In this document: positions 14,429 through 28,584 of the stretch, piece after piece
Position numbering within the stretch: position 1 is the first letter of the stretch
Layout of the letters: each line of letters begins with the position of its first letter
DNA from: an uncultured Clostridia bacterium
GTDB lineage: Bacteria > Bacillota > Clostridia > TANB77 > CAG-508
Direction of reading: 5' to 3'
DNA length: 64,000 bases
Assembly: GCA_934154445.1 (NCBI GenBank)
Contig: CAKPGC010000001.1
Coordinates: 21,787 to 85,786 of the forward strand
Notes under the pieces: model-generated
The model's database searches: none
Seen by the model: only the letters and a program-made list of their open reading frames with translations
Told to the model about the DNA's origin: nothing
Made by a program: the position numbers and the translations under genes

Positions 14429-14430
14429 TT

Positions 14431-23395: not shown

Positions 23396-25238
23396 TTATT
23401 TAAAATCTTTTTTGTTTTGAACATTTTGGTACAAATTTTCCAATTCCTCCACTGTTCCATGTTTTATAAACTCATCAGGCCAAGATTTTTTTTCCATTTT
23501 TATATTTTGTAATTTTTCTTCTACAATTAGTTCTTCTATTGCTGTTCCAAGTCCATTAATTTTTGTTCCATCTTCCATAGTAATAACATTTTTGGTTTTG
23601 TTTATAGATTCTTTTATTGTTTCAATATCTAATGGTTTCAAGAATCTTGCATTTATAACTTCTGCATCTATTCCATCTTTTTCGTAATCTTTAGCTAACT
23701 CCATTGCTTTAGCAACTCTTTTACCAATCGCAATTATAGTTATATCTTGTCCTTTTCTTAAAATTTCAGATTTTCCTAATTCTATTTTTTGATGTTTTTC
23801 AAATTTTATTTTTTCATCTTCTCCACCTCTTGGATATCTGATTACAACCGGTTTATTTAAAGTTATTGCAAATTCCATCATATCTTCTAGTTCTTTAAAA
23901 TCTTTTGGTGACATTATTGTTAAATTTGGAACTAATCTAAAAAATGCCATATCCAGTGTTCCTTGATGTGTTTCTCCGGTCTTGTCCAACTACGCCTGCT
24001 CTGTCAACACACATTATTACAGGCAAGTCTTGTATTGCTACATCATGTATTACTTGATCATAAGCTCTTTGATAAAAAGATGAATATATTGGAACAAAAG
24101 GTATCATTCCTTCTTTTGCCATTCCAGCAGCCATTGTTATAGCATGTTGTTCGGCTATTCCTACATCAAAAAATCTTTTTGGAAATTCTTTTTGAAATCT
24201 AGATAATCCTGTTCCATCTTTCATAGATGCTGTTACTGCCACAATTTTATCATTATTTTGGGCTAGTTCTACTAACTTTTCTCCAAATATCTTTGAGTAA
24301 TCCTCTCTTTTTTCTTTTTTAGCTATTCCTGTTTTAATATCAAAAGGTGCTGTTGCATGAAATCTATCAGGATTTTCTTCTGCAATTTTATATCCCTTTC
24401 CTTTTTTTGTTAAAACATGAATTAAAACAGGTGCTTCGACTTGTTTACTTAATCTCAATATATTTTCTAACTGTTCTATATCATGTCCATCAACTGGTCC
24501 AAGATATGTAAATCCTATATCCTCAAAAAACATTTTAGGTATTATTAGTTGTTTTATACTTCTTTTTATTCTTTGTATTATTTTAACACTTGGCTTTCCT
24601 ATTAGTGGTATTTTATTTATCATCTTTTTAATTGATACATTTGACTTTGTGTATAATTTTTTTGTTCTTAGCTTACTTAAAAACATATTTAATCCACCAA
24701 TATTTGGGGATATACTCATTTCATTGTCATTTAATATAACTGTCATTTTTGTATTACTACATCCTGCATCATTTAATGCTTCCAAAGCCATTCCACCGGT
24801 TAATGCTCCATCTCCAATTACACTAATTACGTAATTACTTTTTCCTTTTAAATCTCTTGCTCTTGCCATTCCTAAAGCTGCTGATATTGATGTACTACTG
24901 TGACCTGTATCAAAATTATCATATTCTGATTCGTTTATTTTTGGAAATCCGGATAATCCATTTAATTTTCTTAATGTTTTAAAATTTTCTCTTCTTCCTG
25001 TAATTATTTTATGTACATAAGATTGATGTCCAACATCCCAAACTATTTTATCTTTTGGCATGTCAAAAACACTATGAAGTGCTATTGTAAGCTCTACAAC
25101 ACCTAAATTTGATGCTAAATGTCCTCCATTTTCTGATACAACTTTTAATATATATTCTCTTAGTTCTTGTGCTAATTTATTTTTTTCTTCTATACTTAAT
25201 TTTTTTAAATCTTCTGGTGAATTAATTTCTTCTAACAT
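23396..25238 (-). pseudogene. dxs: 1-deoxy-D-xylulose-5-phosphate synthase interrupted by a single +1 frameshift
   Basis: 433-aa N-part and 197-aa C-part; junction reads VVGQD/GETHQGTLD after removing one extra C in GACCGGA at about 23976-23979. Confidence 0.85.
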
Positions 25239-26723: not shown

Positions 26724-26730
26724 AAATTTA

Positions 26731-26770
26731 AAAAATAGAATTTATTTTTAAAAATAAATTCTATTTTTTT
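26731..26770. terminator. bidirectional terminator (VWA gene / uppP)
   Basis: aatagaatttatttt-aa-aaaataaattctatt then T-run. Confidence 0.65.
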
Positions 26771-27603
26771 TACAATCTTATTATACACAAACATATAATA
26801 AATAATCCTAAAATAACTCTATATATTGCAAAACCTTTAAAGCTACCCTTTTTTAAATATTCAAGTAAAAACTTGATAACTATTACACCAACAATAAAAC
26901 TTGCTAAAATTCCAATAAAGAATGGTATATTAAATACAAAATCTTTTAAGTCATATAATGCTGCAGCTAAAACTATTGGTGTAGATAATAGAAAAGAATA
27001 TTTTGCAACAGATTCTCTTTCTAATCCCATTCCTCTACCTACAGTCATTGTAATTCCTGATCTTGAAACACCAGGGAAAGCTGCTGCTATTGCTTGAGAC
27101 ATAGAAATTAAAAGAGACTGTTTAAATGTAATATTTTCATATTTAACTTTTGATTTTGATTTTTTATCTACTACATATAGTATTATACCCATTACTATCA
27201 AAGCAAAAGCAATTAAAAACATTTCTATGATTTTTTCTTCAACGCTTAATGAAAGTGCAAGTTTTTCTATTATTTTTCCTGATACTTTATCTAGTATCAA
27301 ACATAAAATTCCTGTTGGAATAGTTGAAATTACTATGTACCAAAAAATCTTTCCTTCTGTAGATTTTTCTTTTTTTACAGCCTGTTTATATCCTCCTTTT
27401 ATTAACTCTATCCAATCTTTAAAAAAGAAGATAATTATTGCAAATAATGTTCCTATATGTAAAGCAACATCAAATGATGGACTAATCTCCTCCCATCCAA
27501 ATATCCATGGAAATAAATTTAAATGTGCCGAACTAGATATTGGCAACAATTCTGTTAGTCCTTGAATTACTCCTAAAATTAGCGCTTGTAAAACTTCGTT
27601 CAT
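26770..27603 (-). CDS. uppP: undecaprenyl-diphosphate phosphatase UppP/BacA
   Basis: start set at MNEVLQALILGVIQGLTELLPISSSAHL (RBS aaaggga); the ORF-track extension MSKRGVLIDKKGKK is a translation of the palindromic leader element. Confidence 0.85.
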   Translation of the reverse strand: MNEVLQALILGVIQGLTELLPISSSAHLNLFPWIFGWEEISPSFDVALHIGTLFAIIIFFFKDWIELIKGGYKQAVKKEKSTEGKIFWYIVISTIPTGILCLILDKVSGKIIEKLALSLSVEEKIIEMFLIAFALIVMGIILYVVDKKSKSKVKYENITFKQSLLISMSQAIAAAFPGVSRSGITMTVGRGMGLERESVAKYSFLLSTPIVLAAALYDLKDFVFNIPFFIGILASFIVGVIVIKFLLEYLKKGSFKGFAIYRVILGLFIICLCIIRL

Positions 27604-27615
27604 TTTTTTCCCTTT

Positions 27616-27697
27616 CTTGTCAATAAGGACACCCCTTTTTGACAAATTTTTATTTTACTTATGTATCTTGCCAAAAAGGGGCGTCCTTATTGACAAG
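27616..27697. repeat. bipartite palindromic element in uppP leader
   Basis: two ~30-nt quasi-palindromic units in inverted orientation, 21-nt AT-rich spacer; minus-sense units CTTGTCAATAAGGACGCCCCTTTTTGGCAAG and TTGTCAAAAAGGGGTGTCCTTATTGACAAG. Confidence 0.6.
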
Positions 27698-27705
27698 AAA
27701 ATTAA

Positions 27706-28584
27706 CTACTTTTTATATATTTCTTTTAAAATATTATAAACTGTATCTTTTATAAATTCTGCTGTTGTGACTGGTGCAACTTTTCCAGGTAGAGCTAATG
27801 CCCATATTAATTTTAAATTTTTATCTTTTGCTGCTTTTTTATCTATTCCACCGGGATTTGATGCTAAGTCAACTAACAAGCAATCTTCTTTTATATATTT
27901 TATTCTTTCTTCTGTTAATATTAAATGAGGAACTGTGTTTATTATTATATCGTATTCTGCTAAATTTTCTCCAATAGAATTAATATTAGTACCAATATGT
28001 CCATAAGCTTTAATCCATGCTAAATCCTCATCTTTTCTTGCTGCACATGTTACCTTTGCTGAAAGACCAGCAAGTTTTCTTGCTAATACCTTTCCAATTC
28101 GTCCAAATCCTAATATTAACACTTTGCTTCCATGTATTATTTTATTAGTATTTTCAATTATTATTTCTATTGTTCCTTCTGCCGTTGATATTGTATTTAA
28201 AACCGCCAGTTCTTCTCTCTTCATTATATCTATTATTTCTATATATTCATCATTTGCTAAGTCATAAACTTCTGGTGCTATGGTTCCTGCAATTAAAATC
28301 TTTGCATTTATAACATGCATCAATTCTCTAATCGATATATTTTTTTCACCAAATGGTGTATTAATATCTTTACCATTGCTAGAAAATGGAATTGGTCCAA
28401 TAACTATTTCTGTATTTTTTACAACCTCAAACAATTTTTCACACATAATAATGTTTTCATTTTCATTCAGTTCTTTTGCATTTTCTAATCCATAAGTATA
28501 CACTTTGTTTCCATCATCAGCTAACATTTTTGCCAATTTTACTATTCTAAGATCTCCGCCTATAACCGCAAAACTTGTATTCAT
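27706..28584 (-). CDS. dpaA: dipicolinate synthase subunit A-like protein (SpoVFA homolog)
   Basis: 292 aa; aligns with B. subtilis SpoVFA (FAVIGGDLRIV, STAEGTIEIIIENT..IHGSKVLILGFGRIG, VDLASNPGG..LPGKVAP). Confidence 0.7.
   Translation of the reverse strand: MNTSFAVIGGDLRIVKLAKMLADDGNKVYTYGLENAKELNENENIIMCEKLFEVVKNTEIVIGPIPFSSNGKDINTPFGEKNISIRELMHVINAKILIAGTIAPEVYDLANDEYIEIIDIMKREELAVLNTISTAEGTIEIIIENTNKIIHGSKVLILGFGRIGKVLARKLAGLSAKVTCAARKDEDLAWIKAYGHIGTNINSIGENLAEYDIIINTVPHLILTEERIKYIKEDCLLVDLASNPGGIDKKAAKDKNLKLIWALALPGKVAPVTTAEFIKDTVYNILKEIYKK

What the first reader, a model, noticed from the sequence alone, without database searches (positions are those of the whole stretch)
27616..27697. 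Bipartite palindromic element forms the uppP leader (and was mis-translated as an N-terminal extension)
Two ~30-nt quasi-palindromic units lie in inverted orientation around a 21-nt AT-rich spacer, 12 nt upstream of the likely uppP start. The outer arms are TTGTCAA..TTGACAA and the cores are G/C-rich and mutually complementary. The arrangement allows two competing folds: each unit as its own hairpin, or a long unit1:unit2 duplex. GC-rich cores (GGACGCCCC) are conspicuous in a 26% GC genome. The same architecture recurs between grpE and dnaK, and as a single unit before the GH57 gene. This looks like a family of cis-acting RNA/DNA elements (REP/MITE-like or a regulatory switch) rather than chance.
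Basis: seen in the sequence. Interest (0 to 1): 0.55.

Follow-up and report, generated by a model that had tools for sequence, protein, structure and literature searches.

The report
REP-like palindrome doublet upstream of uppP
The hairpin pair in front of uppP is not a uppP-specific leader: it is one copy of a dispersed family of short palindromic repeats (like REP/REPIN elements) that in related gut Clostridia flank a single-copy REP-type tyrosine transposase gene.

Summary
At 27613-27700 two 29-nt units lie inverted around a 22-nt AT spacer. The same doublet lies between grpE and dnaK (55185-55267), and a single unit lies before the GH57 gene (58389-58417). A covariance model finds exactly these five units in the window.

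The 'uppP leader or switch' reading fails. dpaA-uppP synteny is kept in about 50 related loci, but only the same species has the doublet.

The units belong to a family in low-GC gut Clostridia MAGs, with consensus TTGYCAAAA-GGGACG-gnCC-TTTTTGRCAA.
- They sit 0-18 nt after the upstream stop codon and never between divergent genes.
- Pairs are always convergent (12 of 12 inverted pairs; one locus adds a tandem third unit).
- They are present or absent at orthologous sites, and one copy lies inside tilS.

In four related species a single-copy Y1 (HUH) transposase gene sits between rnj and gltX. Its best matches are the REP-associated tyrosine transposase family and structure 4ER8. It is flanked, in inverted orientation, by hairpins with the same GGGGACG core.

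Best reading: a REP/REPIN-type doublet inserted between dpaA and uppP. Effects on mRNA stability, processing or uppP translation are inferred only. No transposase gene lies in the window.

The parts
27613..27700 (.). Doublet A: the whole inverted repeat between the dpaA-like stop codon and the uppP start. This is the reported finding.
   Evidence: I2: 33-nt arms, 94% complementary; RNA fold -52.7 kcal/mol, z -11.7.
27668..27696 (-). Unit A-distal, first on the transcript. Reads TTGTCAATAAGGACGCCCCTTTTTGGCAA on the - strand. Lies 9 nt after the dpaA-like stop codon.
   Evidence: 45.6 bits with model R1.
27646..27667 (.). AT-rich spacer of doublet A. It is A-rich on the sense (-) strand and T-rich on the antisense strand.
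27617..27645 (+). Unit A-proximal. Reads TTGTCAATAAGGACACCCCTTTTTGACAA on the + strand. Its end abuts and partly pairs with the uppP Shine-Dalgarno region (AGAAAGGGA).
   Evidence: 45.4 bits.
26770..27603 (-). uppP/bacA (277 aa, ATG start), the gene downstream of doublet A.
   Evidence: PF02673 BacA; 277-aa product on public contigs.
27706..28584 (-). dpaA-like gene (292 aa), the gene upstream of doublet A. The element lies in its 3' trailer.
   Evidence: PF16924 DpaA_N.
55185..55267 (.). Doublet B between grpE (55286-55801, -) and dnaK (53309-55159, -). Units at 55185-55213 (+) and 55239-55267 (-), with a 25-nt spacer.
   Evidence: (I4); orthologous doublets in L083 and L209.
58389..58417 (-). 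Single unit C, starting 1 nt after the stop codon of the DUF4912 gene (57521-58387, +) and ending 17 nt before the GH57 ATG (58435). Its core has decayed to GGGATG.
   Evidence: orthologous single units or doublets in L206, L207, L208.

Best explanation
The element is a doublet of a repetitive extragenic palindrome (REP): two inverted units, as in the published REPIN and BIME elements. It was inserted into the short spacer between dpaA and uppP in this species' lineage.

Each unit is a 29-nt hairpin: palindromic arms TTGYCAAAA / TTTTGRCAA around an asymmetric core GGG(G)ACG. The family belongs to a wider set of hairpins in low-GC gut Clostridia. These share the apical GGGGACG heptamer but have different arms.

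In related species the same hairpins flank, in inverted orientation, a single-copy Y1 (HUH) transposase gene of the REP-associated tyrosine transposase (RAYT, also called TnpA-REP) type.

Inferred mechanism: the transposase recognises the hairpin and its GGGGACG motif on single-stranded DNA, and copies or moves units or doublets into extragenic DNA just downstream of genes.

Inferred consequences at this locus:
- The doublet is co-transcribed with dpaA and uppP.
- It can fold as one 34-bp hairpin or as two small ones.
- It could act as a barrier to 3' exonucleases, as a double-strand RNase substrate, or as a partial mask of the uppP ribosome-binding site.
- In the sense direction it has no U-tract, so it should not terminate transcription.

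Shown: the anatomy, the family, the positional rules, presence and absence at orthologous sites, and the transposase association in relatives. Inferred: transposase activity on these units, and every effect on expression.
For: Family and consensus:
- 35-37 units from the window and about 25 low-GC Clostridia MAGs share aaaaG-TTGYCAAAAGGGACGgnCCnTTTTTGRCAA-Cttttt.
- The arm spacing is always 15 nt.
- Arm positions covary: UA 19 against CG 10 at one pair, AU 8 against GC 8 at another.

Position:
- No unit lies between divergent genes.
- Five loci lie between convergent genes; the rest lie between co-directional genes.
- Units lie 0-18 nt from the upstream stop codon, at variable distance from the next start codon.
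- This is the distribution published for REPs (PMC3733652).

Pairs: all 12 inverted pairs are convergent, with spacers of 7-48 nt; one locus (L065) adds a third unit in tandem.

Gain and loss:
- dpaA-uppP is filled only in this species.
- grpE-dnaK is filled in the window, L083 and L209. It is empty in L121, L206, L207, L208 and L330-L333.
- The GH57 site holds a single unit in the window and L206, and a doublet in L207 and L208, with compensatory arm changes.
- One copy lies inside tilS.
- MAG CAKPAB01 has its own core variant, GGGCCGCCC, at several loci.

Transposase:
- A 247-265 aa Y1_Tnp protein keeps an invariant HUH motif and a YIHxNP motif.
- Its best NCBIfam hit is REP-associated tyrosine transposase at 63-71 bits; IS200 scores 22-27 bits.
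- Its best structural hit is 4ER8, RAYT bound to a REP hairpin.
- It sits between rnj and gltX in four species: L332, L334, L337, L340.
- In all four it is flanked by inverted GGGGACG hairpins.
- The L340 flank core GGGACGGACCTTTTGG is identical to that of family units in L022 and L037.

Motif specificity: in 187 kb from relatives, 24 of 34 GGGACG sites lie in strong palindromic arms and most others in weaker ones. Same-composition control hexamers that do not overlap the motif give 0-1 of 5-10.
Against: - No transposase gene lies in the 64-kb window or in the closest relatives' loci. Its presence in the source genome is untested.
The window holds only five units.
- Four of the five window cores have decayed (GGACG, GGACA, AGACG, GGGATG). 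The copies may be old and no longer mobile.
- The transposases score below the curated NCBIfam cut-off: 63-71 bits against 80.
- The family lacks the unpaired GTAG or CGTC tag at one end that defines the published REP super-families.
- No target-site duplication or exact insertion boundary could be defined.
- At grpE-dnaK the spacer resembles the empty-site sequence. Separate insertion of two units, or loss of units from an older doublet, therefore cannot be told apart.
- Some orthologous copies keep their hairpins through compensatory changes. That points to host-level selection on at least some copies.
Confidence: 0.8

Rival explanations
1. The units are primarily host-selected RNA elements at the 3' ends of genes or between cistrons. 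They would act as stabilisers against 3' exonucleases, as processing sites, or as attenuators. Their spread and sequence similarity would be secondary. This overlaps with the best explanation through exaptation of individual copies.
For: - The units hug the upstream stop codon.
- The GH57-site unit is kept across four species with compensatory arm changes: AGGTC..GACCT and GTGAC..GTCAC.
- In the grpE-dnaK doublets the two units change together: AG/AG, GG/GG, GA/GA.
- In 5 of 5 independent operon-internal doublets the spacer is A-rich on the sense strand, so no sense-strand U-tract follows the first hairpin.
- The folds are very stable.
Against: - The asymmetric GGGACG core occurs in both orientations relative to transcription in single units.
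- Mismatches in the duplex between paired units show no excess of sense-strand G.U pairs: 15 against 12.
- The uppP copy is absent from all relatives.
- The same core flanks a transposase gene.
- One copy lies inside a coding sequence.
Confidence: 0.25
2. The units are ordinary bidirectional intrinsic terminators that happen to look alike. No mobility would be involved.
For: - The consensus flanks are an A-run on the 5' side and C+T-run on the 3' side.
- Some members look like textbook terminators, for example L206 13827 after dnaJ: AAAAAAG-hairpin-CTTTTTTG.
- Low-GC Firmicutes terminators are typically A-tract / stem / T-tract structures close to stop codons (PMC1590033).
Against: - None of the window copies is followed by a T-run on the sense strand, and the terminator scan finds nothing at either doublet.
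- Independent terminators do not share a 29-nt consensus with an asymmetric heptamer across loci and species.
- This reading does not explain the always-convergent pairs, the presence/absence differences, the intragenic copy or the transposase flanks.
- Ordinary terminators of unrelated sequence exist in the same window, for example at 14430, 9376 and 62002.
Confidence: 0.07
3. It is a uppP-specific regulatory leader: a riboswitch, attenuator or thermosensor that uses the two competing folds.
For: - It lies directly upstream of the uppP ribosome-binding site, and the base of the long hairpin pairs with part of that site.
- Two alternative folds exist.
Against: - It is absent from the orthologous leader in every relative outside the species.
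- The same element sits at unrelated genes: dnaK, GH57, sufC, recG, dnaJ.
- No Rfam match reaches a gathering score; only generic long-hairpin microRNA models give weak hits.
Confidence: 0.03
4. It is an operator for a dimeric DNA-binding protein that recognises TTGTCAAAA-N11-TTTTGACAA, or a promoter module that uses its TTGACA as a -35 box.
For: - The half-sites are palindromic at a fixed spacing of 15 nt.
- A weak promoter-like match, TTGGCA-17-AAAAAT, lies on the sense strand inside doublet A.
Against: - The units are never found between divergent genes, and they sit after stop codons.
- The arms vary between subfamilies while the core stays constant.
- The neighbouring genes have no common function.
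- No comparable promoter match exists in doublet B, and the single unit C has no upstream partner.
- The arm 9-mer is not enriched outside the units.
Confidence: 0.03

Closest known systems
REP / BIME / REPIN elements with their RAYT (TnpA-REP) transposases, as in E. coli, Pseudomonas, Stenotrophomonas and Neisseria
   Same: - Imperfect palindromes of 20-40 nt.
- Extragenic, lying between co-directional or convergent genes within about 20 nt of the upstream stop codon.
- Single units and inverted dimers with 20-100 nt spacers, which fold either separately or as one long hairpin.
- Occasional intragenic copies, and copies read as false N-terminal extensions.
- A single-copy Y1 HUH transposase flanked by the repeats in inverted orientation, at a fixed chromosomal site.
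Sources: compared with PMC3733652, PMC5581495 and PMC6006769.
   Different: - The host is a low-GC gut member of the Clostridia. The 2013 survey lists no Firmicutes among REP-bearing phyla.
- The conserved, orientation-defining motif (GGGGACG, or CGTCCCC on the other strand) sits at the top of the hairpin next to the 5' arm. It is not an unpaired GTAG or CGTC tag at one end.
- Several arm subfamilies share this one motif within a genome.
- The transposase carries a C-terminal helix-turn-helix extension and scores below the NCBIfam RAYT cut-off.
TnpA-REP subclass 2.1 (Quentin et al. 2018), equivalent to RAYT group 1 (Bertels et al. 2017)
   Same: - A Y1 HUH core plus a C-terminal HTH domain; precomputed Pfam hits HTH_23 and HTH_28 occur in homologues P0188 and P0205.
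- Single copy.
- The group is reported to occur in Clostridia.
   Different: - For that subclass the literature reports no REP-like sequences near the gene (PMC6006769).
- It reports only low-abundance flanking 16-mers (PMC5581495).
- Here all four genes examined are flanked by inverted hairpins that also occur dispersed in the genome.
- Membership of the subclass is inferred from domain architecture. It was not tested against the authors' sequences.
CGTC-tagged REPs (RPE-4/6 of Rickettsia, dRS3 of Neisseria)
   Same: - CGTC is part of the conserved motif on one strand.
- Stems begin with A/T pairs.
- Loops are 4-5 nt in the tightest fold.
- Head-to-head dimers predominate.
- Both sit close to 3' gene ends.
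   Different: - In those families CGTC is an unpaired terminal tag and no dedicated transposase is known.
- Here the motif is internal, and the elements flank a transposase gene.
Correia (NEMIS) and ERIC-type miniature inverted-repeat elements
   Same: - Co-transcribed intercistronic insertions.
- They form long double-stranded RNA hairpins that can be RNase III substrates or create promoters. This point rests on my own knowledge and on PMC1590033.
   Different: - Those elements are 100-150 bp units with terminal inverted repeats and target duplications.
- Here the mobile module is a 29-nt hairpin, or a pair of them, and no duplication is detectable.

Membership tests
REP / REPIN / BIME | Short (20-40 nt) imperfect palindrome able to form a stem-loop. 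| tested here: met
   29-nt units. 82% of cells pair across 35 units, with covarying arm pairs. Folds.
REP / REPIN / BIME | Many dispersed copies in the extragenic DNA of one genome. | tested here: inconclusive
   The 64-kb window holds 5 units at 3 loci. MAG CAKPAB01 has at least 8 units in 4 blocks, and L052 has 4 units in 8 kb. In relatives, hairpins with the motif occur about once per 5-6 kb. A whole-genome count was impossible because the scan was truncated.
REP / REPIN / BIME | Lie between convergent or co-directional genes, close to the upstream stop codon, and avoid divergent intergenic regions. | tested here: met
   no divergent sites, 5 convergent loci, the rest co-directional; 0-18 nt from the upstream stop codon.
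REP / REPIN / BIME | Inverted dimers predominate and tandem (head-to-tail) pairs are rare. | tested here: met
   All 12 inverted doublets are convergent. One tandem pair occurs, as part of a triple.
REP / REPIN / BIME | Presence or absence at orthologous sites, as evidence of mobility. | tested here: met
   dpaA-uppP; grpE-dnaK; the GH57 site, single unit versus doublet.
REP / REPIN / BIME | A cognate RAYT gene flanked by the same repeats (a REPtron). | tested here: inconclusive
   Met in four related species: L332, L334, L337, L340. No such gene lies in the window or in the nearest relatives' loci. The source genome itself could not be searched.
REP / REPIN / BIME (GTAG- or CGTC-tagged super-families) | An unpaired GTAG or CGTC tetranucleotide at one end of the palindrome. 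| tested here: not met
   Both ends of the unit are palindromic. The only asymmetric conserved motif, GGGACG / CGTCCC, is apical. Definition taken from PMC3733652.
RAYT / TnpA-REP (for the transposase found in relatives) | Y1 HUH core with conserved HUH and catalytic Tyr motifs. | tested here: met
   PF01797 at 54.5 bits, above its cut-off of 23. NHVHxL and YIHxNP are invariant.
RAYT / TnpA-REP (for the transposase found in relatives) | Reaches the curated NCBIfam score for REP-associated tyrosine transposase (NF047646, 80 bits). | tested here: not met
   63-71 bits. This is the best family and covers the full profile. IS200 scores only 22-27 bits.
RAYT / TnpA-REP (for the transposase found in relatives) | Structural similarity to TnpA-REP. 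| tested here: met
   AlphaFold model with mean pLDDT 72. Top Foldseek hit 4ER8_A: E = 2.9e-5, target TM-score 0.65, ahead of the IS608 and ISDra2 transposases. PDB sequence searches were not significant.
RAYT / TnpA-REP (for the transposase found in relatives) | Single copy at a conserved chromosomal position, inherited vertically. | tested here: met
   The order rnj - transposase - gltX holds in four species whose proteins are 50-70% identical. Most homologues occur on only 1-4 contigs.
Intrinsic (Rho-independent) terminator | GC-containing hairpin immediately followed by a U-tract on the transcribed strand. | tested here: not met
   No terminator-like site at 27300-28000 or 54900-55600. In the window the sense-strand sequence after the hairpins lacks a U-tract: the doublet spacers are A-rich and unit C is followed by ACGAAAGG. 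Some family members elsewhere do have U-tracts.
Known cis-regulatory RNA (Rfam) or gene-specific leader | Match to a curated family, and conservation at the orthologous leader. | tested here: not met
   Only tRNAs reach gathering score. Sub-threshold hits are to generic hairpin models. The element is absent from orthologous uppP leaders.
MITE | Terminal inverted repeats with a target-site duplication, derived from an insertion sequence that has terminal inverted repeats. | tested here: inconclusive
   The doublet has 33-nt inverted ends. No duplication could be recognised in comparisons of filled and empty sites. No related insertion sequence was seen.

The most novel reading that the evidence does not exclude
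These hairpins would be the missing REP population of the RAYT subclass that carries a C-terminal HTH domain (Bertels group 1, Quentin subclass 2.1). That subclass is so far described as a single-copy, co-opted gene with no associated repeats. The transposase would read an apical GGGGACG heptamer rather than a 5' GTAG tag. Many arm subfamilies could then coexist in one genome, which would also explain why 16-mer or 21-mer counting missed them. Under this reading, gut Clostridia (Bacillota) host a vertically inherited REPIN-RAYT system anchored between rnj and gltX.
Probability: 0.4. Interest if true: 0.65.

Novelty: new variant of a known kind. Interest (0 to 1): 0.5.

Why it matters
For annotating this genome:
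- The hairpins should be masked as repeats.
- They should not be read as N-terminal extensions or as gene-specific leaders.
- They mark sites where intercistronic structure was recently added to the dpaA-uppP and grpE-dnaK operons.

More generally, REP-RAYT systems have been studied almost only in Proteobacteria and Cyanobacteria. Their function and persistence are open questions. If the link shown here in relatives holds, it would give three things:
- A REP population for a RAYT subclass thought to have none.
- A short recognition motif that is simple to mutate.
- A gut-Clostridia setting with many sequenced relatives, in which gain, loss and decay of copies can be followed at orthologous sites.

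Tried and rejected
1. uppP leader or switch. Rejected by the ortholog comparison.
2. Known RNA family. Nothing found at gathering score or at E-value level.
3. Terminator or promoter module. The scans find no terminator. One weak promoter-like match in doublet A is not repeated in doublet B.
4. DNA-uptake-sequence-like signal. The arm 9-mer is not enriched outside the units.
5. RNA-level selection on the long duplex. There is no sense-strand G.U bias, 15 against 12. The 3 of 3 seen in doublet A is compatible with chance.
6. Phage carriage. The exact core pattern gives no hits in the viral collection, and the first 120 loose-pattern viral hits contain no true member.
7. First transposase search. 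tblastn with IS200 TnpA and E. coli YafM sequences recalled from memory found nothing. The gene was found later only through Pfam annotation of locus L332.
8. Other arm subfamilies in the window. None is convincing.
9. PDB sequence searches with the transposase. Not significant; only the fold comparison was informative.
10. Literature. Searches for the arm sequence or for described Clostridial REPs found nothing specific.
11. Whole-genome copy number, and the transposase status of the source species.

Full report
**Observation**

The window has 27% G+C. The same region, with an identical DpaA-like protein, occurs on human-gut (Hadza and other) metagenome contigs.

At 27613-27700 two 33-nt arms are 94% complementary and lie 22 nt apart. 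Each arm holds a 29-nt quasi-palindrome:
- TTGTCAATAAGGACACCCCTTTTTGACAA on the + strand, 27617-27645.
- TTGTCAATAAGGACGCCCCTTTTTGGCAA on the - strand, 27696-27668.

Both neighbouring genes are on the - strand. The dpaA-like gene ends at 27706. uppP/bacA starts at the ATG at 27603; public gene calls give 277 aa. The element therefore fills nearly the whole 102-nt intercistronic spacer.

The sense RNA folds into an uninterrupted 34-bp hairpin of -52.7 kcal/mol, z = -11.7. As two separate hairpins it totals -26.7 kcal/mol.

A second doublet lies between grpE and dnaK at 55185-55267. It folds at -38.2 kcal/mol as one hairpin and -18.5 as two. A single unit at 58389-58417 lies between a DUF4912 gene and the GH57 gene.

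Pattern counts are far above chance. A covariance model built from 35 units finds exactly these five units in the window at 41-50 bits. The next hit, at 17 bits, is an ordinary terminator at 14430.

**It is a family, and it follows the published REP rules**

Even so, it returned about 30 true members among chance hits. All true members came from low-GC (25-35%) uncultured Clostridia, Clostridium or Lachnospiraceae MAGs.

Once oriented, 35-37 units give the consensus aaaaG-TTGYCAAAAGGGACGgnCCnTTTTTGRCAA-Cttttt, with the arms always 15 nt apart. The arms covary: TTGTCAA..TTGACAA against TTGCCAA..TTGGCAA. The flanking pair switches between A-T and G-C. The core GGGACG is asymmetric and gives each unit an orientation.

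Context:
- No unit lies between divergent genes.
- Five loci lie between convergent genes; the rest lie between co-directional genes.
- The units lie 0-18 nt after the upstream stop codon. Distance to the next start codon varies.

Pairs: all 12 inverted doublets are convergent, with AT-rich spacers of 7-48 nt. One locus (L065) adds a third unit in tandem.

Single units occur in both orientations relative to transcription.

These properties match those described for REPs and their dimers, including the two alternative folds and copies mistaken for N-terminal extensions (PMC3733652; see also PMC1590033).

**It is not a conserved uppP leader**

A metagenome scan for UppP relatives gave 80 loci at 60-99% identity. 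About 50 of them still have dpaA directly upstream. Only L127, which is the same species at 99% identity, carries the doublet.
- L126 (UppP 96%, DpaA 88%) has a 49-nt spacer with no unit.
- Other relatives have spacers of about 17-60 nt with no unit.
- No unit occurs anywhere else in those 343 kb.

Six strains of the species itself carry an identical copy. The doublet is therefore an insertion specific to this lineage.

**Other orthologous sites**

*grpE-dnaK.* The doublet is present in the window, in L083 (DnaK 95%) and in L209. It is absent from L121, L206, L207, L208 and L330-L333.

In the three filled sites the two units of a doublet change together. After ACGG the bases are AG/AG, GG/GG and GA/GA. 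Pairing between the units has thus been kept, whether by selection or by conversion.

The empty sites read like the filled sites minus the two units. I could not decide between two insertions and loss of units from an older doublet.

*GH57 site.* It holds a single unit in the window and in L206, where the 5' arm is partly decayed. It holds a doublet in L207 and L208. The L207 units carry compensatory arm changes, AGGTC..GACCT and GTGAC..GTCAC. Some copies are therefore old and keep their hairpins.

*Other evidence.*
- One high-scoring unit lies inside the tilS reading frame in L007, in a variable loop.
- MAG CAKPAB01 has its own core variant, GGGCCGCCC, at several loci. This pattern is what spread within a genome would produce.

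**The transposase link**

Locus L332 was fetched for its GrpE. Next to rnj it carries a frameshifted Y1_Tnp gene.

The reconstructed 264-aa protein and its intact homologues (247-265 aa) have these properties:
- They match Pfam Y1_Tnp.
- Their best NCBIfam family is 'REP-associated tyrosine transposase' at 63-71 bits, below the 80-bit cut-off. IS200 scores only 22-27 bits.
- They keep invariant HUH (NHVHxL) and YIHxNP motifs and have a C-terminal helix-turn-helix region.
- A model with mean pLDDT 72 has as its top PDB match 4ER8, the REP-associated transposase bound to a REP hairpin. The IS608 and ISDra2 transposases come next.

In four species whose proteins are 50-70% identical, the gene sits at the same place, rnj - gene - gltX. 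In all four it is flanked by inverted hairpins that carry GGGGACG:
- L334: AACCATTGGGGACGTTCTCAAATTGGTT upstream, and its inverted counterpart just after the stop codon.
- L340: TCAACCAATGGGGACGGACCTTTTGGTTGA, twice upstream and once inverted downstream.

The L340 core GGGACGGACCTTTTGG is identical to that of family units in L022 and L037, which read TTGCCAAAAGGGACGGACCTTTTTGGCAA.

In 187 kb from ten relatives, GGGACG occurs 34 times. 24 occurrences lie in strong palindromic arms and most others in weaker ones. Same-composition control hexamers that do not overlap the motif give 0-1 of 5-10.

Several arm types share the motif:
- TGTCCCA..TGGGACA
- AGGGATTT..AAATCCCT
- AAACTG..CAGTTT
- CGGGATT..AATCCCG
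- the window's TTGYCAAAA..TTTTGRCAA

This arrangement, a RAYT gene between inverted REPs, is what the literature calls a REPtron.

**What is shown and what is inferred**

Shown:
- the anatomy of the element;
- family membership and the positional rules;
- gain and loss at orthologous sites;
- the transposase association in relatives.

Not shown:
- a transposase in the source genome (there is none in the window or in the nearest relatives' loci);
- whole-genome copy number;
- any enzymatic activity.

Four of the five window cores have decayed (GGACG, GGACA, AGACG, GGGATG). The window's copies may be ageing.

All effects on expression are inferred:
- Sense-strand U-tracts are absent and no terminator is predicted.
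- In five of five independent operon-internal doublets the spacer is A-rich on the sense strand. This fits selection against polar insertions.
- The base of the long hairpin pairs with part of the uppP ribosome-binding site.
- The hairpin starts 5 nt after the dpaA stop codon. In E. coli, REPs this close to a stop codon lower expression of the upstream gene; this rests on my own knowledge.
- Mismatches between paired units show no bias toward sense-strand G.U pairs, 15 against 12. There is no sign that the long duplex is selected at the RNA level.

**Comparison with what is known, and novelty**

The closest known systems are REP/BIME/REPIN elements with RAYT transposases. There are four differences:
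- The host phylum. The 2013 survey lists no Firmicutes.
- The conserved motif is apical, not an unpaired GTAG or CGTC tag at one end.
- Several arm subfamilies share one motif.
- The transposase has a C-terminal HTH extension.

That architecture matches TnpA-REP subclass 2.1, equivalent to RAYT group 1. For that group the literature reports no nearby REP-like sequences and only rare flanking 16-mers (PMC6006769; PMC5581495; bioRxiv 10.1101/2021.07.10.451892). The subclass assignment is inferred from domain architecture only.

I rate the finding a new variant of a known kind. The uppP copy itself is an ordinary member of the family.

Noticed in passing
L007 2336-2368: A high-scoring family unit (TTGCCATTAGGGACGGTCCTTTTTGGCAA on the - strand) lies in frame inside the tilS gene. 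It encodes about ..NCQKGPSLMAK.. in a loop that is 4-5 residues longer than in solved TilS structures. This is an intragenic REP-like copy.
   Followed up: partly
L208 10501-10818; also the grpE-dnaK spacers of L330, L331 and L332: A different palindromic element (about TTATTATAAACTTCGACGTACACATGTACGACTTCAGCTTATAATAA) occupies the grpE-dnaK spacer in relatives that lack the family doublet. This spacer seems to collect hairpin insertions.
   Followed up: no
L332 5795-5845: A tandem array of three or more copies of about CGTCCCCCAATGTT, that is, the REP core motif repeated head to tail without arms.
   Followed up: no
L052 2205-2280 and 1370-1452: Two doublets bracket sufC. The ORF of the upstream DtxR/MntR-like gene (2246-2713, - strand) runs into a unit, so the unit supplies its last codons and its stop codon.
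   Followed up: no
window 58405-58430: In unit C the 3' arm (CCCUUUUG) can pair with the GH57 Shine-Dalgarno region (GAAAGGAG) instead of with its own 5' arm. The minimum-energy fold prefers this pairing.
   Followed up: no
window 26730-26769: A perfect 22-nt palindrome made only of A and T (AAAAAATAGAATTTATTTTTAA / TTAAAAATAAATTCTATTTTTT) lies between the convergent uppP and VWA-domain genes. It is probably a bidirectional terminator and is unrelated to the family.
   Followed up: no
window 23396-25238 (- strand): The DXP-synthase/transketolase-like gene appears as two overlapping ORFs of 433 and 197 aa, and public gene calls on other strains show the same split. This could be a frameshift or a genuinely split gene.
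   Followed up: no
L014, L021, L030, L046, L072, L074, L100 (high-GC Oscillospiraceae and Clostridiales MAGs): A recurring hairpin, (C)TTGTCAAAAAAGC-N4-GCTTTTTTGACAG(TCT), has the same outer arms as the family but a different core of terminator type. It may be a distinct repeat family.
   Followed up: no
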